Below, one piece after another: positions 1-36,794 of a DNA stretch of 36,794 nt; within the stretch, counting starts at the first letter, position 1, and every line of letters begins with the position of its first letter. The stretch is from the IMG/VR virus record IMGVR_UViG_2713896909_000013. The stretch is one strand, 5' to 3'. The DNA is from a virus (taxonomy: Duplodnaviria; Heunggongvirae; Uroviricota; Caudoviricetes). The notes beneath the pieces are model-generated. The model saw only the letters and a list, made by a program, of their open reading frames with translations. It did not search any database and was not told where the DNA came from. The position numbers and the translations under genes were made by a program.

Positions 1-1053
1 TTACGGGGTAATGCCAACCGCTGCCGCCACTTTGTCGCCACTTGGCAGCGTTGCCAGAGGATTGAAACGGAGCGCCGTTTCCAGATGATCCGGTGCCAGA
101 TGTGCGTAACGCATAGTCATTTTTATATCGTGGTGTCCGAGAATTTTTTGTAAGGCCAGAATGTTTCCACCCGACATCATGAAGTGCGCCGCAAACGTAT
201 GGCGCAGAACGTGTGTGAGTTGACCGCGAGGGAGCACGATAGACGTTTTTTCCATCACGGATAAAAATTGAAAATAGCAGTCTGTGAAGAAATTGAACCC
301 ATCAAGCGCCATGATCTCTTCGTAAAGCTCTTTACTGATAGGGATGCTTCTGTTTTTCTTCCCCTTCGTTCTTACAAAGGTAATTCGGTATTTGGTCACC
401 TGTGAACGAGTAAGATTTACGGCTTCTCGCCAGCGTGCGCCTGTGCTTAAGCATATCTTAACTACCAGTGCCAGAATTGGGTCCTGACGTTTGCAATCAG
501 CCAGTAATTCAACAATCTGCTCATGGGTAAGCCATGCCATCTCTTTTTCTGCGATGGTGAATTTTCGCATGTTCTCCAGTGGGTTCGGATACGACCATTC
601 GCCCAGGCGGGATAGTTCGCTAAAAACACTACTTAGATAGCTTTGCTCCAGGTTAATGGTGACCGGGCTTGCTCCTTTCTTCCATTTCTCGCTGAAGTAG
701 ATCTCACCTGTCAGGCGTTTATCTCGATAGTGGGCAAACATTTTAGAGGTTAGATCAGTTGCAAGGGGATTGCCCAGAGCGTCAACCATCAGCAGCAATT
801 TGTCATAGACATGCTGCCCAGCAGTCAGTGATTTACCATGTAGTTTGAACCATAGCTCAACCACGTCTTTCAGTGTTCGACGATCCACTGATTCACCTAG
901 CCAGGGCTTTGCTTCGGTTTCTTCCATCGTGTGACGCTCAAAAGCCAGTGCTTCGCCTTTGGTGGCGAATTGTTTACGCACACGACGCCCACTACGTCCG
1001 GCGGGGTAACATTCGCAAAGCCATTTTCCTGTGGTGAGTTTTCGTACAGCCAT
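1..1053 (-). CDS. int: tyrosine integrase, P2 Int-like
   Basis: C-terminal catalytic region (ARWRE...HVLRHTFAAHFMMSGGNILALQKILGHHDIKMTMRYAHL) typical of tyrosine recombinases; start set at the ATG at 1053 (MAVRKLTTGK) preceded by GGAGGG, not the longer ORF reaching 1131. Confidence 0.9.
   Translation of the reverse strand: MAVRKLTTGKWLCECYPAGRSGRRVRKQFATKGEALAFERHTMEETEAKPWLGESVDRRTLKDVVELWFKLHGKSLTAGQHVYDKLLLMVDALGNPLATDLTSKMFAHYRDKRLTGEIYFSEKWKKGASPVTINLEQSYLSSVFSELSRLGEWSYPNPLENMRKFTIAEKEMAWLTHEQIVELLADCKRQDPILALVVKICLSTGARWREAVNLTRSQVTKYRITFVRTKGKKNRSIPISKELYEEIMALDGFNFFTDCYFQFLSVMEKTSIVLPRGQLTHVLRHTFAAHFMMSGGNILALQKILGHHDIKMTMRYAHLAPDHLETALRFNPLATLPSGDKVAAAVGITP
20..40. repeat. attL: candidate attL core (left copy of the 21-bp direct repeat)
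   Basis: GCTGCCGCCACTTTGTCGCCA; matches 33940..33960 with one mismatch; lies inside the 3' end of int. Confidence 0.55.
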
Positions 1054-2018: not shown

Positions 2019-2042
2019 GGTCACTCCAAGTGAACTTTTATC

Positions 2043-2071
2043 TTGACGATTTCACCGTGCGATCGTATGTT
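2043..2071 (+). promoter_or_regulatory. candidate early lytic promoter pR (TTGACG, 17-bp spacer, TATGTT) flanked by a GTGAAC/GTTCAC inverted repeat
   Basis: Sigma70-like hexamers with 17-bp spacing upstream of apl/cII; GTGAAC at 2030..2035 and GTTCAC at 2078..2083 bracket it as possible operator half-sites. Confidence 0.45.
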
Positions 2072-2143
2072 TATGGTGTTCACAAAATACAAACGATCCG
2101 TATTCGTCCTGATTAATCATCATTAAACGAGGAATGTTGCATC

Positions 2144-2365
2144 ATGAGACCTAACATTTCAATCACTCTTACCACGCCTCATGTGACTATTGAACGCTAT
2201 AGCGAGCTGACAGGGCTATCCATCGATACCATCAATGACATGTTGGCTGATGGACGCCTTATCCGTCACCGTCTGCGCAAAGATAAAAAACGCGAAAAAG
2301 TGATGATCAACATAGCAGCAATGACCGTTGATGCGCTTTCAGAATGCAATCTAAACCTTAATTAG
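2144..2365 (+). CDS. apl: Apl/Cox-like excisionase and transcriptional switch protein
   Basis: 73-aa HTH-like protein, first gene of the rightward early operon, divergent from cI; RBS GAGGA. Confidence 0.6.
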
Positions 2366-8086: not shown

Positions 8087-9664
8087 ATGGATATCAACTA
8101 TGTTGTTTCAAAAATGGGGTTCGTAGATGATCTTATTAATGCAGGTTCATTTGATTCTGCCTATAAAAATGTAAAGGATATTCTTAACGGTATCGATGAG
8201 ATAAATACAATCAAAGAAAATAGAATAATTATATTATCTAATTTGGCCGGAAATCTTATTGATATCGGAAGTTTTAGTAATGTAAAAAATATAGCGGAGG
8301 AAGGCTTAAATATCTTTATAAACAATAAAAATGAATTTCTGACTATAATGAAAGAATCCTTATATTACTATAACTTGGCAAATGGAATGAGCGCAGTTCT
8401 TGATTTTAATCCTAATGACAATGCAGATATTGATAGTTTCATTAAGCTGAATGATGTAAAAAATAATTACTGGAAAGCGTTTAAACTTTCACAAGAAGAT
8501 GGATGGGTGCCCCCTGATTTAATAGTTAATCTAGCTAATGTATTAAAAAAACAATATCGTATATCTGAATCAATGGATTATTATGAACAAGCAATATCTA
8601 TTGATAACTCAATTCCTCAGGCGTGGGTAAACAGATCTGAGGCATTAGAATTGCTTAATGAATTATCTACAACATATACATATAAAATGATTAAAGAAGT
8701 TATTCGAGGTTATGAGTGTGCAATAAAGTCAGGGAAATGTTTTCCTTCATGGAAGGTTGCTCTTCAAAGAAAAATAAAGTACAACGAAAGTATATTGAGT
8801 GAATCATGTGTATATGGGATAGAGGATATAAGTACAGATGAAAGGCTCACGCAGGAGGAGTATGATACTTTATCAAACTACCAGAGGTTTTGTATAGATA
8901 ATAATCTAATGTTGTCTGATCATTCGCTATATTGCAATTGTTATGCGTCATCTAAAGATAATATAACTATTGCTACCACCGAGGAAGGTGTGTTTGGTGA
9001 TTTTATAGTGCCAATGGAAATGGTGTTAAATAGACTTAAAGCTGAGTATTCCTTAGCACGAAAAATGTTTTTTGAATATAAGGTTGATAGTGAGTTTTTT
9101 GATGAGGATTCGGAGGTATGTTATTCTGAATTGTATAATGGAGAAATATTGTATGAAAATGTTGAGAAGTTAAGGGTTGCATTTAGAGCTTGCTTTGGTA
9201 TCTTGGATAAAATAGCAGTTGCTCTGTGTCAATTATTTGATTTAAAACCAGATAGAGGACATATATACTTTCATAACTTCTGGCGGATTAGTGATGAAAA
9301 AAGAAAGCTTAAAATAAACAAAATAAATAATAAAGGATTGCTGGGTTTGTTTAGTATTGCTATGGATTTGAATGATAAAAATGGTGAGCTTGCTTTTTTT
9401 AAAGAATGGAGGAATGATTTAGAACATAAACTGTTAGTTATTCACGAGAAAGACATGTTAGTTGATTTATATAATTCTTATGGATTTTTTGATGAGGTGA
9501 GATTTATTGAGAAAGAAAAGTTTGAGAAACAGCTCTTACAACTCATGAAAATTGTGAGATCAGCCGTTATTCTTTTTGTGTTTACCATACGTATAGAGGG
9601 GAAAAAAAGTATTCCTAAAGATATGTTGACCATTAAAAATACCATCGAGAGAAAAGTATTGTAG
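8087..9664 (+). CDS. cargo protein 1: TPR-like N-terminal region with C-terminal HEPN-like domain (Rx4H motif); candidate abortive-infection RNase
   Basis: 525 aa, very AT-rich relative to the phage backbone; RBS AGAGGA and a TATAAT-like -10 upstream; RNDLEH (Rx4H) at about 9410..9427; TPR-like helical repeat signature in the N-terminal half. Domain calls are from motif reading only. Confidence 0.45.
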   Translation: MDINYVVSKMGFVDDLINAGSFDSAYKNVKDILNGIDEINTIKENRIIILSNLAGNLIDIGSFSNVKNIAEEGLNIFINNKNEFLTIMKESLYYYNLANGMSAVLDFNPNDNADIDSFIKLNDVKNNYWKAFKLSQEDGWVPPDLIVNLANVLKKQYRISESMDYYEQAISIDNSIPQAWVNRSEALELLNELSTTYTYKMIKEVIRGYECAIKSGKCFPSWKVALQRKIKYNESILSESCVYGIEDISTDERLTQEEYDTLSNYQRFCIDNNLMLSDHSLYCNCYASSKDNITIATTEEGVFGDFIVPMEMVLNRLKAEYSLARKMFFEYKVDSEFFDEDSEVCYSELYNGEILYENVEKLRVAFRACFGILDKIAVALCQLFDLKPDRGHIYFHNFWRISDEKRKLKINKINNKGLLGLFSIAMDLNDKNGELAFFKEWRNDLEHKLLVIHEKDMLVDLYNSYGFFDEVRFIEKEKFEKQLLQLMKIVRSAVILFVFTIRIEGKKSIPKDMLTIKNTIERKVL

Positions 9665-10005: not shown

Positions 10006-10065
10006 TGCGCGCAAGCATAGATTCTGTAATATGTATGGCACATAGCAAATGACAAGGTGATTATT

Positions 10066-11805
10066 ATGCATGCGATCTTGAAACAATACGTCGAAGATCT
10101 TTCTAACCAATTTGCGATAGAAGAAGATGAACCGAAACTCTTCGAGTATTTTTGTAATTATGTTATTGCTTCTAAAAAGTATTTAGGACGATTTAGCCCT
10201 ATCGATATCACTACTCAAGAGGATGATGCCTCATTAGACGGAATTATCTTTCTTATTGATGGTGAATTAATAACTACTGTTGATGATGCTGAGGCGATAT
10301 TTAAAACCCATAAAACATCATTGCCAGTGGAGTTAATACTTACTCAGATTAAATCTGGTGAGGCTTTTGTTAAATCAGATATTGCAAATTTCAAGATTGG
10401 CTTGGATGATTTTTTAAGTCTTAAACCAAAATTACCAAATGGTATCTATAACACTCAAGCTATTGAAATATTGAAAGTAATATTTGCAAATGTAAAAAAA
10501 ATTAAAAACAAAAAACCATCGCTTACAGTTCATTATTGCACTAGTGGTACTTATGTTGAAGAGAGAGAAATTAAAGCTACATTTGATATAATTAAAAAAT
10601 CATGCTTCGATACTGACTTTTTTGATTCTGTTGACGTGAGACCTCTCGGGCGTAAAGAACTAATGGATATGTGGATATCCATAACCGAAAAAAATGAGGC
10701 TGAGTTACAGTTGATTGATTACATAGGTATCGAGGCTATGCCAGGTATCCCTCAATCATATATTGCAATTGTAAAAGCAAAGCATTTTATTGAGAAGCTT
10801 GCAAAAGATAGTGATGGAAAAATAAAAGAGTCAATTTTTGAAGAAAATATACGTGCGTTCTTAGGAAGTGATAATAATGTTAATAATAAAATATCCTCAA
10901 CTTTAGAAGATAAAAAAATAAAAGCAAAACAATTTCCAGTGTTGAATAATGGAGTGACTATAATTACTCCAGAGTTATCTATACAACCAAACACAAAAGT
11001 TATAAATCTTACAAATTATCAAATTATTAATGGTTGTCAAACAACTAATACACTCTTCCATCATTACGATAATTTAAATGATGATGTTGAGATTGTTGTC
11101 AAATTTATAGAGTCTCAAGATGCTGATGTTGCAAGTAGCATAATTGAAGCAACAAATAGTCAATCAGCAATTGAAGGAGCAGCGTTTTTTGCATTGCGTG
11201 AAAAAGCTAAAATGGTGCAGAAATATTTCGATCTACAGAGGAAAGACCCAAAACTGGAAAGTATATATTTTGAGCGGCGTGAAAATGAATATCGGCCATA
11301 TGATATACAATCTACACGTATATATGATATTAAAGAACTGGCTCGTTGCTTCATATCTGTATTTAAGCGGAACCCGCACAATGCTGCTAGATATGTTAAA
11401 AAAGTACTTAGCGAAAGCGATAATATAATATTTGGTGAGGCCGATAATGAGTGCGCATATTATACTGCGGCGTATATATGTTATAAGTATAATACTATGA
11501 TTAACGGGCGAAGAGAAAATGCACAAAAGTATAATAAATATAGATGGCATATTGCAATGTTATATCCTTGGGTCGTAAATAAAAAGGTTGAGAAAGTTGA
11601 ATTAAATTCAAAGAAAATGAGTGCCTATTGTGAGCGTATTCTTAAAACATTTTATAATGACAACTATATTAAGCATTTTTCAAAATGCCATGAGATAATT
11701 GATGCTCTTGCTTTAGATAATGAGAATGGTGTTACAGATGATCAACTAAAACGTGCACGATATACTACTAGTTTAATTGAAAAAGCTACTGAGATTTTGA
11801 AATAA
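10066..11805 (+). CDS. cargo protein 2: AIPR-like (abortive infection phage resistance family-like) protein with a possible PD-(D/E)xK-like N-terminus
   Basis: About 579 aa from the ATG at 10066 (RBS AAGGTGA); very AT-rich; NGCQTT motif at about 11029..11046, which I associate with AIPR-type proteins; N-terminal D...QxK pattern (FLIDGE...LTQIK) compatible with a restriction-endonuclease fold. Confidence 0.45.
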   Translation: MHAILKQYVEDLSNQFAIEEDEPKLFEYFCNYVIASKKYLGRFSPIDITTQEDDASLDGIIFLIDGELITTVDDAEAIFKTHKTSLPVELILTQIKSGEAFVKSDIANFKIGLDDFLSLKPKLPNGIYNTQAIEILKVIFANVKKIKNKKPSLTVHYCTSGTYVEEREIKATFDIIKKSCFDTDFFDSVDVRPLGRKELMDMWISITEKNEAELQLIDYIGIEAMPGIPQSYIAIVKAKHFIEKLAKDSDGKIKESIFEENIRAFLGSDNNVNNKISSTLEDKKIKAKQFPVLNNGVTIITPELSIQPNTKVINLTNYQIINGCQTTNTLFHHYDNLNDDVEIVVKFIESQDADVASSIIEATNSQSAIEGAAFFALREKAKMVQKYFDLQRKDPKLESIYFERRENEYRPYDIQSTRIYDIKELARCFISVFKRNPHNAARYVKKVLSESDNIIFGEADNECAYYTAAYICYKYNTMINGRRENAQKYNKYRWHIAMLYPWVVNKKVEKVELNSKKMSAYCERILKTFYNDNYIKHFSKCHEIIDALALDNENGVTDDQLKRARYTTSLIEKATEILK

Positions 11806-20650: not shown

Positions 20651-21229
20651 ATGAACGCACAATTAACCGAAATCATGCGCCTTATCACTAACCTGATCCG
20701 CACAGGGGTAGTCACCGAAGTGGACAGGGAAAACTGGCTTTGCCGGGTGAAAACGGGCGAGCTTGAAACCAACTGGATCAGCTGGCTGACGCTGCGTGCC
20801 GGGAATGCCCGTACATGGTGGCGACCATCGGAAGGTGAGCAGGTGGTGCTGCTGAGTCTGGGCGGCAATCTGGAAACCGCCTTTGCGCTGCCCGCTGTCT
20901 ATTCGAATCAGTTCGCACCACCGTCGACGTCGGCGGATGCCTGCGTGACAGAACATCCTGACGGTGGCTGGTTTGAATACGAACCCGCCACCGGGCGCTG
21001 GTATGTCAGGGGCATCAAATCAATGGTCATTGAGGCTGCTGACAACATCACCATGAAAACCAGTGAGTTTGTACTGGAGGCTGACCGCACGCGCATTAAC
21101 AGCGAAGTGGTGATCAATGGTGGCGTTACCCAGGGCGGCGGAGCGATGAGTTCTAACGGGATCGTGGTTGATGCGCATCAGCATACTGGCGTCCTGAAAG
21201 GCGGCGACACAACCGGAGGCCCGGTATGA
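20651..21229 (+). CDS. V: baseplate spike/assembly protein, P2 gpV-like
   Basis: 192 aa, first gene of the baseplate operon. Confidence 0.85.
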   Translation: MNAQLTEIMRLITNLIRTGVVTEVDRENWLCRVKTGELETNWISWLTLRAGNARTWWRPSEGEQVVLLSLGGNLETAFALPAVYSNQFAPPSTSADACVTEHPDGGWFEYEPATGRWYVRGIKSMVIEAADNITMKTSEFVLEADRTRINSEVVINGGVTQGGGAMSSNGIVVDAHQHTGVLKGGDTTGGPV

Positions 21230-25641: not shown

Positions 25642-26016
25642 TTACTCACCAACAGCCCACCAACTGTAATGCATAGATACCGTGTCGCTGGTTGATGACG
25701 TTCTGTAAGCAGAATTAAAGCCGGTTAACGTAGGGCCTTCTGCAGTCATCACGAACCCTCGCCCAGCGCCTAAAGGCGCACCGCCATCACCAGAATGGGT
25801 AAGAATGGCGCAGTCCGCTTTTTTAGGGAAAGGGATAGGAAATGTAATCCTCATTGTTTGCGTCGATAATTTCGGCATAGCCTCACCTCGACCATATTGC
25901 AGAATTTTACCGTTGGGTAATTTCATCCATCCATCACCACTGGCAAAAGAAGCCATGTCCGGTATCTGATTTTCCCCTGTTCCCACACCCCGTTTCGCTG
26001 CTTCTCCCAAACCAAC
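25642..26016 (-). CDS. alternative tail fibre C-terminal segment (H', expressed only after inversion)
   Basis: Minus-strand reading frame running from the right inverted repeat to a stop just upstream of G'; has no promoter or RBS of its own in this orientation. Confidence 0.6.
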   Translation of the reverse strand, partial: VGLGEAAKRGVGTGENQIPDMASFASGDGWMKLPNGKILQYGRGEAMPKLSTQTMRITFPIPFPKKADCAILTHSGDGGAPLGAGRGFVMTAEGPTLTGFNSAYRTSSTSDTVSMHYSWWAVGE

Positions 26017-26027
26017 GTTTATGAAAA
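25991..26027. repeat. hix/gix-like recombination site (right crossover site)
   Basis: Contains CTTCTCCCAAACCAA (26001..26015), the inverted copy of the core in the H gene; lies just upstream of the invertase gene. Confidence 0.55.
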
Positions 26028-26082
26028 TGCAGAGATAATGGCTAACTGGCATCATCCCCGGTTTTTATTCAGGGGATTGATC

Positions 26083-26649
26083 ATGCTTATTGGCTATGTA
26101 CGCGTGTCAACAAATGACCAGAACACCGATTTGCAACGTAATGCACTGAACTGCGCGGGATGTGAGCGGATTTTTGAGGACAAAATCAGTGGTACTAAGT
26201 CCGACAGACCGGGGCTTAAAAAACTGCTCAGGACACTATCGGCAGGTGACACACTGGTTGTCTGGAAGCTGGACAGGTTGGGGCGCAGTATGCGGCATCT
26301 TGTTACTCTGATAGAAGAGTTGCGCCAGCGCGGCGTGAATTTCAGAAGTCTGACTGACAGTATTGATACCAGTACCCCAATGGGCCGTTTCTTTTTTCAT
26401 GTCATGGGTGCCCTGGCTGAAATGGAACGCGAACTGATAGTTGAACGTACCAGGGCAGGGCTGGCTGCAGCTCGTGCTAAAGGCAGAGTAGGTGGACGCC
26501 GTCCTAAGTTGACTACCGAACAGTGGGCACAGATTGGACGTTTACTCGAGGCCGGAGAATCAAGACAGCGTATTGCACTGATTTTTGATGTGGGCGTTTC
26601 TACCATTTATAGAAAATTTCCGGCGAATGAGAACAATGAATCGCCCTGA
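26083..26649 (+). CDS. serine DNA invertase (Hin/Gin/Pin/Cin family)
   Basis: N-terminus MLIGYVRVSTNDQNTDLQ carries the catalytic serine motif of resolvase/invertase enzymes; about 188 aa with a C-terminal HTH; RBS AGGGGA. Confidence 0.9.
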   Translation: MLIGYVRVSTNDQNTDLQRNALNCAGCERIFEDKISGTKSDRPGLKKLLRTLSAGDTLVVWKLDRLGRSMRHLVTLIEELRQRGVNFRSLTDSIDTSTPMGRFFFHVMGALAEMERELIVERTRAGLAAARAKGRVGGRRPKLTTEQWAQIGRLLEAGESRQRIALIFDVGVSTIYRKFPANENNESP

Positions 26650-33719: not shown

Positions 33720-33938
33720 ATGATGATTTGCCCACTGTGTGGAAGTGCCGCCCATACTCGCAGCAGTTTTCAGGTATCTTCATTGACCAAAGAGCGTTAC
33801 AACCAGTGCCAGAACATTAACTGCAGCCATACTTTTGTTACCCATGAAACTTTTGTTCGTTCGATTGCAACGCCAAAAGAGTCAAATCCGGTTCAGCCAC
33901 ATCCAATGAAATCAGGACAGGTGGCGCTCTCTCTTTGA
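33720..33938 (+). CDS. ogr: Ogr late-gene transcriptional activator (zinc finger)
   Basis: 72 aa from the ATG at 33720 (RBS GGAGA); C-x2-C-x22-C-x4-C motif (CPLCG...CQNINC); same length as P2 Ogr and last gene before att. Confidence 0.9.
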   Translation: MMICPLCGSAAHTRSSFQVSSLTKERYNQCQNINCSHTFVTHETFVRSIATPKESNPVQPHPMKSGQVALSL

Positions 33939-33939
33939 C

Positions 33940-33960
33940 GCTGCCGCCATTTTGTCGCCA
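33940..33960. repeat. attR: candidate attR core (right copy of the 21-bp direct repeat)
   Basis: GCTGCCGCCATTTTGTCGCCA, 20/21 identical to 20..40; begins 2 bp after the ogr stop codon. Confidence 0.55.
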
Positions 33961-34018
33961 TCGTTAAAAAACAGTGTTTCTAACATCATGATTTTAAACA
34001 GCTTAAATTTCAGGCAAC

Positions 34019-34061
34019 AAAAAACCCATCAACCTTGAACCTAAATGGCGGGGTTGATGGG
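34019..34061 (-). terminator. rho-independent terminator (minus strand) downstream of ybjL
   Basis: On the minus strand CCCATCAACC-loop-GGTTGATGGG followed by TTTTTTG; lies in host DNA between the att core and the ybjL 3' end. Confidence 0.5.
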
Positions 34062-34173
34062 CTCCACAAAATGGGGACATCAAAGAAAAGCAGTGGCACT
34101 AATTAAGACTGATGCCCCGAAGAAAAGTTCTGCGCTTGTGCAAAAAAATTTCATTCTCAGGGCAACTTCAGGT

Positions 34174-35859
34174 TTATCCGAGTCCTGGCCACACCATTAC
34201 AATGATTGTCCCCGCCAGCGTCAGTAGCACGTTAGCTATTGCATAGGTACCTGCATAGCCCAGCGCCGGGATATTACTGCGCGCAGTATCGCTGATAATC
34301 TCCATTGCCGGAGCGCAAGTACGTGCTCCCATCATTGCGCCGAATAACAGCGCGCGGTTCATACGCAGTACGTAAGCACCGAACAGGAAGCAGATAACCA
34401 CTGGCACCAGACTGACAATCAATCCGGCAATTAGCATTTGACCGCCAATTGCACCAAGGCCGTTATTGATGCCGCTACCGGCGCTTAAACCAACGCCTGC
34501 CATAAACACCATCAAACCGAACTCTTTCACCATGCTTAAGGCACCCTGCGGAATATAGCCGAAGGTAGGATGGTTGGCGCGCATAAAGCCCAGCATAATA
34601 CCGGCAAATAACAATCCGGCAGCATTACCCATGCCAAAGCTAAATGTACTGAACTGGAAAGTGATCATCCCAATCATCAGACCAATGACAAAGAATGCGC
34701 AGAATGCCAGCAAATCGGTAACCTGGCTGTGAATTGAGATAAAGCCAATGCGATCGGCGATGGTTTTCACGCGACGGGCATCACCACTGACTTGCAACAC
34801 GTCACCTTTATTAAGTACCACGTTGTCATCGATTGGCATCTCTATCTGGCTGCGGATGACGCGGTTAAGGAAGCAACCGTGATCGGTCAATTTCAATTGC
34901 GCCAGACGTTTACCAACGGCGTTATGGTTTTTAACTACTACCTCTTCAGTGACGATACGCATATCGAGAAGGTCACGATCAAAAACTTCTTTACCGTTAC
35001 GGAAGCTGGGATCGAGTCGGGCGTGGGCGTCAGGGTAACCGACCAACGCAATTTCATCACCCATTTGCAGCACGGCATCGCCATCCGGGTTCGCCAGAAT
35101 CCCATTACGGCGGATACGCTCGATATAGCAACCCGTTTGCCGATAGATGCCCAGTTCTCGCAGATTTTTGCCGTCGGTCCATGCAACCAGTTCCGGGCCG
35201 ACGCGGTAGGCGCGGATGACAGGTAAATAGACTTTACGGCTGGCGTCGGTGTCCAGACCTCGTTCACGGGCGATCTGTTGAGCACTGGTCTGCAAGTCCT
35301 GATGCTGCAACTTCGGTAAATAACGCGCGCCGACAATCAGACTGACCAGACCAATTAAATAGGTTAACGCATACCCGAGGCTAAGATTATCCAGTGCCAG
35401 AGAGAGCTGCCTGCTTTCCATACCAGAATGGCGTAACGTATCGCCGGCACCAACCAGAACTGGTGTTGAAGTCATGGAGCCAGCTAACATCCCGGCTGTC
35501 AGGCCGATGTCCCAGCCAAACAGCTTACCCAGCCCTAAGGCGATCAGCAGCGCACTGCCGACCATTACCAGGGCTAACATTAGATAATTTTTCCCATCGC
35601 GAAAAAAAATGGAAAAAAAGTTGGGTCCGGCTTCGACCCCGACGCAGAAAATAAACAGCATAAAACCAAGATTCAGTGCGTCGGTGTTAATGCTGAAATG
35701 TTGTTGGCCTAATAACAGCGATACGACCAAAACGCCAATGGAATTACCCAGTTGGATTGAGCCAAGTCGTAATTTCCCGAGACACAGCCCAAGCGCGAGG
35801 ACCACAAATAATAACAGAATGTAATTCCCATTTAACAATTCGGCGACGTTTATATTCAC
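34174..35859 (-). CDS. ybjL: putative transporter YbjL (AspT/YidE/YbjL family, two TrkA-C domains)
   Basis: 561 aa; the sequence matches E. coli YbjL as I recall it ([34 protein letters not shown]...); GTG start. Confidence 0.9.
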
Positions 35860-36127
35860 GGAGACTAACTTCTTGTTTACGAGTAAGCTGTTGAAAGAAA
35901 TGGTAATTTACGATAATGTTTTTACCAGAACTCAGGGCGCAGATTCATTCAGCGCACCTAAACGATAGTAAAGCAACAATATATTTTACTAGTGTAATCA
36001 CATTAGGTACCAGCGGCTATAAGAATTGCGTTGGCCTATATTAGCATGGAATGCGAAGCGGCTTTATCTTACTGAACGCCACACTGGCGAAAAATGTGTT
36101 CGATAGACGCAGTGTCAGGAGGAACGA

Positions 36128-36505
36128 GTGAAACATAAACAACGTTGGGCGGGGGCAATCTGCTGTTTTGTCCTTTTCATTGTGGTGTGCCTCTTTCTGG
36201 CGACGCATATGAAAGGCGCTTTTCGGGCTGCCGGGCACCCTGAAATCGGTCTGCTGTTTTTCATTCTTCCTGGAGCGGTTGCCAGCTTTTTTTCACAGCG
36301 TAGAGAAGTTCTTAAACCGCTGTTTGGCGCAATGCTGGCAGCACCGTGCTCGATGTTAATTATGCGACTGTTTTTTTCTCCCACCCGCTCATTTTGGCAG
36401 GAGCTGGCGTGGTTATTAAGTGCAGTCTTCTGGTGTGCGCTGGGAGCGTTGTGCTTCTTATTTATCAGCAATCTGTTCAAGCCACATCACAGAAAAAATC
36501 AATAA
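36128..36505 (+). CDS. ybjM: inner membrane protein YbjM
   Basis: 125-aa hydrophobic protein between ybjL and grxA as in E. coli K-12; GTG start. Confidence 0.8.
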   Translation: MKHKQRWAGAICCFVLFIVVCLFLATHMKGAFRAAGHPEIGLLFFILPGAVASFFSQRREVLKPLFGAMLAAPCSMLIMRLFFSPTRSFWQELAWLLSAVFWCALGALCFLFISNLFKPHHRKNQ

Positions 36506-36527
36506 AGCCCTCAAACAGAGAGGGCTT
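36504..36527. terminator. bidirectional terminator hairpin between ybjM and grxA
   Basis: AAAGCCCTC-AAACAG-AGAGGGCTT hairpin between convergent genes. Confidence 0.5.
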
Positions 36528-36536
36528 ATCCGGCGA

Positions 36537-36794
36537 TCAGGCGTCAAGATTCTCTTTCACCCATGCGGCAAAATCGGTATAGCCGCCAATGTGTTGCTGA
36601 TCGACAAAAATCTGCGGCACGGTTTCTACAGGCTTCCCGGCTTTCTGCTGCAAATCTTCTTTAGTGATCCCTTCAGCACGAATATCAACATACTGATACT
36701 GAAAATCATCACGTTCGTTGCTCAACTGCTCTGCCAGATCTTTCGCTCGCACGCAGTAAGGACATCCCGGGCGCCCAAAAATAACGGTTTGCAT
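36537..36794 (-). CDS. grxA: glutaredoxin 1
   Basis: 85 aa with the CPYC active site (FGRPGCPYCVRAK); matches E. coli GrxA; the ORF starts at the last base of the window. Confidence 0.9.
   Translation of the reverse strand: MQTVIFGRPGCPYCVRAKDLAEQLSNERDDFQYQYVDIRAEGITKEDLQQKAGKPVETVPQIFVDQQHIGGYTDFAAWVKENLDA

What the first reader, a model, noticed from the sequence alone, without database searches (positions are those of the whole stretch)
1..60. Attachment core repeat and integration next to ybjL; int 3' end spans the core
A 21-bp direct repeat (one mismatch) occurs at 20..40 and 33940..33960, delimiting a prophage of about 33.9 kb. The right copy abuts host DNA carrying the ybjL 3' region; the left copy lies inside the last codons of int, so the prophage int C-terminus is completed by sequence at and beyond the core and would differ slightly in the excised phage. 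An imperfect repeat is typical of P2-type site choice.
Basis: partly seen in the sequence, partly recalled or inferred. Interest (0 to 1): 0.4.

Follow-up and report, generated by a model that had tools for sequence, protein, structure and literature searches.

The report
Integrase arm sites, not attachment core
The repeat at the two ends of this prophage is real, but it is the pair of integrase "arm" binding sites that flank the phage attachment site, not the crossover core itself, which lies 56 bp further right (and, on the left, just outside the window); this is an ordinary, already described feature of 186/P2-like phages.

Summary
The repeat exists: 19..40 and 33939..33960 match at 21 of 22 positions. 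It is the only such pair in the window, with 0.003 expected by chance.

It is not the att core. Comparing phage attP forms (KP12, IMG/VR L075), empty E. coli sites (K-12, EDL933), three attL junctions and this window's attR puts the common core at AACAAAAAACCCAT, window 34016..34029. In some hosts the identity extends to 26 bp (34004..34029). The attL core would sit 74-87 bp left of window base 1.

Both copies of the repeat are phage DNA. Both are present in attP and absent from empty sites.

Each copy is two tandem 11-mers (TGCCGCCACTT, TGTCGCCACTT). They match the published 186-type Int arm-site consensus (tgccGCCActt / YAYCGCCAYTY) and the same two-arm, 11-bp-spaced layout as phage 186.

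The int stop codon and tail are identical in phage and prophage forms, so integration does not alter Int.

The locus call was right: the prophage sits between rcdA and ybjL, at the published PhiECO1 site, which about 20% of complete E. coli genomes have occupied. The core is the shared 3' half of the ybjL and int terminators.

This is already known and of low interest.

The parts
22..32 (+). P' arm, Int arm-type site 1 (TGCCGCCACTT); lies inside the int coding tail
   Evidence: Matches the published 186-type consensus tgccGCCActt (PMC3448106). Matches 10 of 11 positions of YAYCGCCAYTY in the phage 186 record. Motif hit.
33..43 (+). P' arm, Int arm-type site 2 (TGTCGCCACTT); tandem to site 1 with an 11-bp period
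   Evidence: Phage 186 has the same tandem 11-bp spacing. The pair stays 100% identical and non-coding in E. coli HS, where a 352-bp insertion follows it directly.
33942..33952 (+). P arm, Int arm-type site (TGCCGCCATTT), starting 3 nt after the ogr stop
   Evidence: Conserved in KP12, L075, ECONIH5, HS and ESSI2_ev040 although the adjacent spacer has diverged.
33953..33963 (+). P arm, Int arm-type site (TGTCGCCATCG), tandem with an 11-bp period
33919..33929 (-). Possible third, inverted arm-type site (GAGCGCCACCT) inside the ogr 3' end; weak
   Evidence: Read from the sequence. Phage 186 has an inverted third site just left of its P-arm pair. The site is not conserved in L075, which has GGTGGTG, so this is tentative.
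33964..34003 (+). P-arm spacer (phage DNA) with an IHF-consensus-like site at 33981..33993 (minus strand, AATCATGATGTTA)
   Evidence: This segment is present in attP and absent from empty sites. The IHF-like match has 1 mismatch and is inference only.
34016..34029 (+). True att core copy in attR: AACAAAAAACCCAT. Identity with attB extends to 34004..34029 (TAAATTTCAGGCAACAAAAAACCCAT) in hosts such as EDL933. The crossover must lie within the 14-mer.
   Evidence: Four-way attP/attB/attL/attR alignment. In ECONIH5, attL and attR share exactly this 14-mer. The published PhiECO1 coordinates in E. coli HS start and end at this 14-mer.
34016..34063 (-). ybjL intrinsic terminator: hairpin 34023..34063, then a U tract. 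The core is its 3' stem half plus the U tract.
   Evidence: RNA fold of -24.1 kcal/mol, z = -3.0. The sequence is homologous to the empty sites.
1..1053 (-). int, a 186-type tyrosine integrase of 350 aa. The stop codon is at window 1..3 and the C-terminal tail GDKVAAAV is encoded by the P' arm sites.
   Evidence: Pfam Int_N and Phage_integrase. N-terminal W11/E14/Y16 are the 186-type arm-site discriminators. The tail is compared with relatives.
33720..33938 (+). ogr/B late-gene activator, the last phage gene before the P arm
   Evidence: Pfam Ogr_Delta. Annotated as such in relatives.

Best explanation
The 22-bp repeat is the pair of integrase arm-type binding sites on the P and P' arms of a 186-type attP. 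The integrated prophage separates them to its two ends.

Each copy is two tandem 11-mers, one helical turn apart:
- TGCCGCCACTT and TGTCGCCACTT at 22..43.
- TGCCGCCATTT and TGTCGCCATCG at 33942..33963.

In the circular phage, the two pairs lie about 55 nt left and about 92 nt right of a 14-26 bp core, (TAAATTTCAGGC)AACAAAAAACCCAT. The inferred mechanism is the standard one for heterobivalent integrases. The N-terminal domain of Int binds the arm sites while the core-binding and catalytic domains act at the core. With IHF bending, this assembles the intasome for integration into the rcdA-ybjL terminator and, with the Apl/Cox-like factor, for excision.

The core is the 3' stem half plus U tract that the ybjL terminator and the phage int-operon terminator have in common, so all four att forms keep both terminators intact.

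Shown here: the positions of the core and of both repeat copies, the presence of both copies in attP, their absence from attB, the motif match and its conservation. Inferred only: physical binding by Int, the role of IHF, and the exact strand-exchange points.
For: Location of the core and the repeats:
- Core mapping by the four-way alignment, with two phage attP forms, two empty sites, and attL junctions in ECONIH5, 813R9, MOD1-EC7003 and L070.
- Both repeat copies are in attP, one on each side of the core.
- The 22-mer is absent from attB.

Match to known arm sites:
- They also match the phage 186 record's YAYCGCCAYTY, with 3 sites left and 2 right of attP.
- Phage 186 shows the same tandem 11-bp-spaced pairs in the same orientation on both arms. 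Its crossover-to-P' distance is about 97 nt, against about 95 nt here.

Conservation:
- ESSI2_ev040 (Int 86% identical) keeps the core and both pairs although its spacers have diverged.
- RCIP0057 (Int 55% identical) has pairs in the int 3' end and beyond.
- In E. coli HS, a 352-bp insertion uncouples the pair from the int ORF, yet the 43-bp block stays 100% identical at the same distance from the core.

Other support:
- Int carries the W/E/Y residues proposed to specify 186-type arm sites.
- The published PhiECO1 boundaries coincide with the 14-mer core.
Against: No binding data exist for this phage. Even the phage 186 arm sites are labelled 'predicted' in its record.

The motif TGYCGCCAYY also occurs 5 times as single copies elsewhere in the window (9 found against about 1 expected). 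The 10-mer alone is therefore not unique to att; only the tandem pairs are.

The fourth 11-mer (TGTCGCCATCG) matches the 186 consensus at only 8 of 11 positions.

The attL of this particular genome is outside the window. Its position is inferred from closely related lysogens: window 1-700 is 100% identical in ECONIH5, and 813R9 is 99% identical. MOD1-EC7003 matches the first 50 bases exactly but diverges further in.
Confidence: 0.88

Rival explanations
1. One reading: the 21/22-bp repeat is the att core, that is, the crossover-site duplication flanking the prophage, and the int C-terminus is completed by host DNA.
For: The repeat is highly significant and sits near both prophage ends. The left flank is almost absent from the window, so this could not be excluded by eye.
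Against: Empty sites lack the repeat. attP carries two copies flanking a different shared core. Between 43 and 55 bp to the right of the right copy is phage-only DNA. The 92 bp to the left of the left copy (18 bp of the window plus 74 bp beyond its edge) is phage DNA in attP and in every attL examined. The int 3' end is identical in the phage and prophage forms.
Confidence: 0.01
2. The repeats are binding sites for another att-bound protein, such as the Apl/Cox-type directionality factor or the CI repressor, rather than for Int.
For: No footprint exists for this phage. In 186-like phages, RDFs also bind tandem direct repeats at helical spacing within attP (five Apl sites).
Against: In phage 186 the Apl sites are annotated at 21075-21121 (five binding sites) and the IHF DNase I footprint at 21057-21086; both lie apart from the CGCCA repeats. 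The CGCCA motif is shared among phages with different immunity and RDF genes. According to PMC3448106 it tracks the Int N-terminal domain type, and this Int has the 186-type W/E/Y residues. No copy of the tandem pair lies in the cI-apl switch region 2025..2143, where an Apl or CI operator would be expected.
Confidence: 0.05
3. The left copy functions at the RNA level, as a 3' stem-loop in int mRNA formed by CGCTGCC...GGCAGCG around the 11-mers. On this view the similarity to the right copy is secondary.
For: Window 10-60 on the minus strand folds at -22.6 kcal/mol.
Against: The z-score is only -1.8 (7 of 200 shuffles fold as well), and the P-arm copy does not fold (z = -1.2). In E. coli HS the insertion removes the GGCAGCG partner, yet the 11-mers are retained perfectly. 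An RNA role would not explain a second copy on the far side of the core in every relative.
Confidence: 0.03
4. The repeat is a functionless relic, for example of an old duplication or a recombination between phages.
For: None specific.
Against: Both the motif and the 11-bp tandem architecture are conserved on both arms in phages whose Int is only 55-86% identical and whose spacers are unrelated, and in phage 186 itself.
Confidence: 0.03

Closest known systems
Phage 186 attP: Int arm-type sites (consensus YAYCGCCAYTY, 3 left and 2 right of the core), with IHF and Apl sites
   Same: The CGCCA-centred 11-mer is the same. Both have tandem pairs with an 11-bp period in direct orientation on both arms, and the core-to-P' distance is similar (about 95-97 nt). 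A possible inverted third site lies left of the P pair in both. The Int N-terminal domain has the same W/E/Y signature, and the gene order B/ogr - attP - int - cI - apl is the same.
   Different: The core and target differ: phage 186 integrates into the 3' end of tRNA-Ile ileY, whereas this phage integrates into the rcdA-ybjL intergenic terminator. Position 2 of the 11-mer is G here and A in 186. In 186 an extra gene (orf69) separates the P' sites from int, whereas here the P' sites lie inside the last 14 codons of int. The P-arm distance is shorter here (about 55 nt against about 105 nt). The two Int proteins are 58% identical over the first 70 residues.
PhiECO1/PhiECO2/PhiECO3/PhiSEN1 prophage group (Nilsson et al. 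2011, PMC3448106), Fels-2/186-type P2-like prophages sharing one integration site
   Same: The integration site is the same. PhiECO1 in E. coli HS lies between rcdA and ybjL, and its published ends fall on AACAAAAAACCCAT. attR in HS is nearly identical to the window, and the P' arm and arm pair are identical.
   Different: The HS prophage carries an extra 352-bp segment with a small ORF between the arm pair and int, and its int tail is remodelled. The window's host is not typical E. coli: its ybjL is about 91% identical to E. coli ybjL. The cargo genes differ.
Phage P2 and WPhi attP (P2-type arm sites, consensus tgTGGaCa)
   Same: The overall heterobivalent Int logic is shared: two direct arm repeats on each side of a short core, IHF plus a Cox/Apl directionality factor, and int adjacent to attP and transcribed towards it (PMC3448106).
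   Different: The arm motif differs, as do the N-terminal residues (Y/D/R in WPhi against W/E/Y here). WPhi Int is only 38% identical, and the cores and host sites differ.
Lambda attP (P1, P2, P'1-3 arm sites plus a 15-bp core)
   Same: It is the same class of element: arm-type sites within attP, absent from attB, and split between attL and attR on integration.
   Different: The sequences, the number and arrangement of sites, and the Int family branch are all unrelated.

Membership tests
att core (crossover-site direct repeat flanking a prophage) | The sequence is present in the unoccupied bacterial site (attB) | tested here: not met
   The 22-mer is absent, with up to 3 mismatches allowed, from the K-12 and EDL933 rcdA-ybjL regions. 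A gapped resemblance inside the rcdA coding sequence is not at the junction.
att core (crossover-site direct repeat flanking a prophage) | It occurs once in the phage attP | tested here: not met
   The attP of KP12 and of IMG/VR L075 each contain both copies, 161 bp apart (end to start), flanking AACAAAAAACCCAT.
att core (crossover-site direct repeat flanking a prophage) | Each copy lies exactly at a phage-host junction | tested here: not met
   Host homology starts at 34004 or 34016, not at 33961. On the left, phage DNA continues 74 nt beyond window base 1 to the core.
186-type Int arm-type binding sites | Match to the arm consensus (tgccGCCActt / YAYCGCCAYTY) | tested here: met
   TGCCGCCACTT matches tgccGCCActt at 11 of 11 positions. 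Three of the four 11-mers match YAYCGCCAYTY at 10 of 11 positions and the fourth at 8 of 11.
186-type Int arm-type binding sites | [quoted passage not shown] | tested here: met
   Tandem pairs with an 11-bp period lie on both arms of attP. They are absent from attB. Phage 186 has the same layout.
186-type Int arm-type binding sites | Cognate integrase with an N-terminal arm-binding domain of the 186 type (W/E/Y discriminators) | tested here: met
   The alignment shows GKWLCECYP here, GGWICELYP in 186 and GRYEVDIRP in WPhi. The discriminator positions are taken from PMC3448106.
186-type Int arm-type binding sites | Conserved in relatives although the flanking sequence has diverged | tested here: met
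   Seen in ESSI2_ev040 and RCIP0057. In E. coli HS the pair is retained outside the int ORF.
186-type Int arm-type binding sites | Physical binding by Int, and a requirement for recombination | not testable with these tools
   This needs EMSA or footprinting and attP mutagenesis. Even for phage 186 the record calls the sites 'predicted'.
PhiECO1-type integration module (rcdA-ybjL site) | Prophage lies between rcdA and ybjL with the core AACAAAAAACCCAT at the junctions | tested here: met
   attR is in the window at 34016..34029, next to ybjL. attL could be seen only in related lysogens because it lies outside the window.

The most novel reading that the evidence does not exclude
The P' arm sites are embedded in the last 14 codons of int, so the Int tail GDKVAAAV is dictated by Int's own DNA target. 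This could be more than economy of space. Int bound at its own gene's 3' end, or the hairpin the sites form with flanking bases in int mRNA, might feed back on int expression.

Separately, the rcdA 3' coding end carries a gapped look-alike of the P-arm pair about 75-95 nt left of attB (score 14, maximum 13 in 500 shuffles). This could be a relic of how the phage acquired this site, or a host-borne pseudo-arm site that influences attL intasome assembly.

Neither idea is excluded by the evidence, and neither is supported beyond these observations.
Probability: 0.06. Interest if true: 0.4.

Novelty: already known. Interest (0 to 1): 0.12.

Why it matters
The main value is as a correction. Taking the terminal repeat as the core would misplace both prophage boundaries: the right one by 56-69 bp and the left one by about 100 bp. 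It would also wrongly predict that Int changes on excision, and it would send attB/attP PCR design to the wrong sequence.

The correct picture is a 14-26 bp core in the shared 3' half of the ybjL and int terminators, flanked by tandem 186-type arm sites. It matches published work on P2/186-like phages and a site occupied in about 1,100 of 5,426 complete E. coli genomes, so it adds no new biology.

It is also a useful cautionary case for prophage-boundary calling. The most significant direct repeat near prophage ends can be arm sites rather than the core, especially when a window or a prophage prediction is cut at the int stop codon.

Tried and rejected
(1) I searched the genome collection for the source genome to read its attL. 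This found only a related prophage in Escherichia sp. MOD1-EC7003 (the first 372 bases are identical, with scattered differences beyond) and a 3-kb 'Bacillota MAG' contig. The window's own left flank was therefore not recovered.

(2) I tested whether the AAAACAATAAGTT direct repeats of the P' arm, which lie outside the window, recur in the cI-apl switch region, as Apl sites do in phage 186. They do not: 4 loose matches against 3.1 expected, none in 2025..2143. These repeats resemble the IHF consensus with 1 mismatch, but overall enrichment was not significant (10 against 6.5).

(3) The simple terminator scan missed the ybjL terminator because its loop exceeds 8 nt. RNA folding shows it.

(4) WPhi was considered as the model, since it is a P2-like phage with a non-P2 site. 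It was rejected: its Int is only 38% identical and has P2-type N-terminal residues.

(5) SopEPhi gave no motif hits within 500 bp of int, because another gene lies between int and its att site. It was uninformative.

(6) The IMG/VR scan returned 80 near-identical loci, most of them truncated exactly at the int stop. Only L070, L075 and L085 were informative.

(7) Literature searches for ybjL with prophage found nothing specific. The figures and supplement of PMC3448106 that show the cores and arm repeats are not held as text.

Full report
OBSERVATION

The repeat is real. Window 19..40 (CGCTGCCGCCACTTTGTCGCCA) and 33939..33960 (CGCTGCCGCCATTTTGTCGCCA) differ at one position. No dinucleotide shuffle produced a second copy. 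An all-against-all search shows it is the only 22-mer pair with at most 1 mismatch in the 36.8-kb window. None occurred in 60 random sequences, and the analytic expectation is 0.0026.

The window begins exactly at the stop codon of a minus-strand integrase gene (1..1053, 350 aa). The left copy encodes part of its tail...SGDKVAAAVGITP*. The right copy starts one base after the stop of an ogr/B-type late activator (33720..33938). To the right lie ybjL (34174..35859, minus strand), ybjM and grxA.

WHERE THE JUNCTIONS REALLY ARE

I compared the four att forms.

- attB, the empty site. In K-12, rcdA is followed by ...TAGTAGATAAGTTTTAGATAACAAAAAACCCATCAACCTTGAACCGAAATGGCGGGGTTGATGGGC... and then ybjL. 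EDL933 has ...GATAAATTTCAGGCAACAAAAAACCCATCAACC.... Neither contains the 22-mer, even with 3 mismatches allowed.
- attP, the phage form. Klebsiella phage KP12 is 100% identical to window 1-700. In it, ogr and int are 165 bp apart, and the sequence reads ogr-stop / CTCTGCCGCCAATTTGTCGCCATCG...TAAATTTCAGACAACAAAAAACCCAT / TTATGTAAACGGGTT... (74 nt) ...TTA (int stop) ...CGCTGCCGCCACTTTGTCGCCA. An independent IMG/VR contig, L075, shows the same arrangement.
- attL. E. coli ECONIH5, the host-flanked record 813R9, Escherichia sp. MOD1-EC7003 and IMG/VR L070 all read rcdA-stop ...AACAAAAAACCCAT / TTATGTAAA(C/T)GGGTT... 74 nt ... int stop.
- attR, in the window. It reads ...TTAAATTTCAGGCAACAAAAAACCCAT / CAACCTTGAACCTAAATGGCGGGGTTGATGGGC....

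The alignment shows the classic swap of flanks around AACAAAAAACCCAT, at window 34016..34029. In ECONIH5, attL and attR share exactly this 14-mer, so the crossover lies within it. Where the host carries the EDL933-type left flank, identity extends to 26 bp (34004..34029).

The attL core would be at window coordinates about -87..-74, which is outside the window. Megablast against 5,426 complete E. coli genomes agrees. In genomes without the prophage, homology to the window starts at 34004 or 34016. In 1,105 genomes ogr sits next to ybjL, and 1,135 genomes carry this int.

The published coordinates of prophage PhiECO1 in E. coli HS (916812-948276; PMC3448106) begin and end on this 14-mer, between rcdA and ybjL. 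The site is therefore already described.

WHAT THE REPEAT IS

Both copies are phage DNA, and in attP they flank the core. The P-arm copy ends 55 nt left of the core and the P'-arm copy starts 92 nt right of it.

Each copy resolves into two tandem 11-mers: TGCCGCCACTT and TGTCGCCACTT at 22..43, and TGCCGCCATTT and TGTCGCCATCG at 33942..33963.

Nilsson et al. [quoted passage not shown] They also state that 186-type phages share the consensus tgccGCCActt, which is exactly the first 11-mer here. The phage 186 GenBank record annotates 'predicted Int arm-type recognition sequences; consensus YAYCGCCAYTY; 3 sites to left of attP and 2 sites to right'.

In phage 186 the sites form tandem pairs with an 11-bp period, in the same orientation on both arms (CACCGCCATTC-TATCGCCACTC and TACCGCCACTT-TATCGCCATTC). 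There is also an inverted third site on the left, and the crossover-to-P' distance is about 97 nt. Here that distance is about 95 nt, and a weak inverted candidate lies at 33919..33929.

The integrase has the N-terminal residues W11/E14/Y16 that the same paper proposes as discriminators for 186-type arm sites. The P2-type WPhi Int has Y/D/R at those positions.

CONSERVATION

- ESSI2_ev040 (Int 86% identical) has the same core, the same replacement hairpin and tandem pairs on both arms, but unrelated spacer sequence.
- RCIP0057 (Int 55% identical, different core region) again has a tandem pair in the last codons of int and further copies beyond.
- E. coli HS is the most telling case. A 352-bp insertion carrying a small ORF sits immediately after the second 11-mer. 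It displaces and remodels the int 3' end. The 43-bp block corresponding to window 1..43 nevertheless stays 100% identical, is now non-coding, and keeps the same distance from the core. The constraint is therefore on the DNA sites and not on the Int tail.

- Int is not completed by host DNA. Its stop codon and the 74 nt beyond it are phage sequence in both the attP and attL forms.
- Relative to 186 Int, this Int has a C-terminal extension of about 10-14 residues. The GDKVAAAV part of it is simply the translation of the arm sites.
- The prophage runs from about -87 to 34029, or about 34.1 kb, rather than from 20 to 33960.

THE CORE AND ITS TERMINATORS

On the minus strand, ybjL ends in a 12-bp-stem hairpin (34023..34063) followed by UUUUUUGUU, at -24.1 kcal/mol and z = -3.0. 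The core is the 3' stem half plus the U tract.

The phage P' arm supplies its own 5' half, giving AACCCATTTACATAAATGGGTT-TTTTGTT. This was called as a terminator-like site on the int strand in attL and folds the same way in attP.

Integration therefore swaps only sequence downstream of two co-oriented terminators, and both remain intact in every att form. This reading comes from sequence and folding only.

MECHANISM (INFERRED)

This appears to be a standard heterobivalent tyrosine integrase system. The Int N-terminal domain binds the four (possibly five) arm 11-mers. The core-binding and catalytic domains act at AACAAAAAACCCAT. IHF-like sites with 1 mismatch lie in the P arm at 33981..33993 and, outside the window, in the P' arm (weak). 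A 73-aa Apl/Cox-like protein is encoded at 2144..2365, although it has no Pfam hit. None of the binding steps was testable here.

RIVALS

- Core repeat: refuted by the comparisons above.
- RDF or CI sites: unlikely. The phage 186 record maps the Apl sites apart from the CGCCA repeats. The motif follows the Int N-terminal domain type. No tandem pair lies in the switch region.
- An RNA hairpin in the int 3' end: weak (z = -1.8), and its partner arm is lost in HS.
- A functionless relic: contradicted by conservation of both the motif and its architecture.

VERDICT

The locus call is correct, but the central interpretation is wrong. The feature is an ordinary, previously described component of 186-type attP, namely the arm-type Int sites, in a very common E. 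coli-group prophage family. It is not novel, and its interest is low except as a boundary-calling caveat.

Noticed in passing
L001 about 1416-1442 (K-12 rcdA 3' coding end), compared with window 33935-33964: The host rcdA 3' end, about 75-95 nt left of attB, contains TGACGCTG----CATTTTGTCACCGACCGT. This is a gapped look-alike of the phage P-arm pair including the ogr stop (TGACGCTGCCGCCATTTTGTCGCC-ATCGT). The local alignment score is 14, against 7.7 +/- 1.2 in shuffles with a maximum of 13 in 500. This was a post-hoc observation; it may be chance or a relic.
   Followed up: partly
L095 944-1295 (E. coli HS PhiECO1): A 352-bp insertion carrying a small minus-strand ORF (WP_001032044) sits exactly after the second P' arm 11-mer. 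It separates the arm pair from a remodelled int 3' end.
   Followed up: partly
window 8087-9664 and 10057-11805 (+): Between the replication gene and the portal gene, which is the P2 cargo/defence hotspot, lie two proteins. One is a 525-aa HEPN_LA2681-domain protein. The other is a 582-aa AIPR/AbiU abortive-infection protein (PADLOC AbiU, E = 3e-107).
   Followed up: partly
window 25642-26649: A Hin/Cin-type serine invertase (26038..26649, Resolvase + HTH_7) lies next to an oppositely oriented tail-fibre C-terminal ORF (25642..26055). This suggests an invertible tail-fibre host-range segment.
   Followed up: no
L085 2050-2330 (IMG/VR UViG 2675903504_000002): A near-identical int and P' arm are joined to different DNA...CAACAACATAATTTC / CATTTATGTAAACTGATT... 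replaces the usual core and rcdA flank. This may be integration at a secondary site resembling the core. In addition, the int stop is mutated from TAA to TCA, adding one codon.
   Followed up: no
L005 (JAEWTL010000113.1, 'Bacillota bacterium' MAG, 3-kb contig): This contig matches window 1-50 exactly. An Escherichia-type P2-like int in a Bacillota MAG bin is probably a binning or contamination artefact.
   Followed up: no
window 34030-36794: The host genes ybjL, ybjM and grxA are only about 90-92% identical to typical E. coli. The host is therefore probably a non-coli or cryptic-clade Escherichia. The prophage int, in contrast, is 100% identical to copies in many E. coli genomes. Most IMG/VR prophage predictions of this family are truncated exactly at the int stop, as this window is, and so lose the attL core.
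   Followed up: partly
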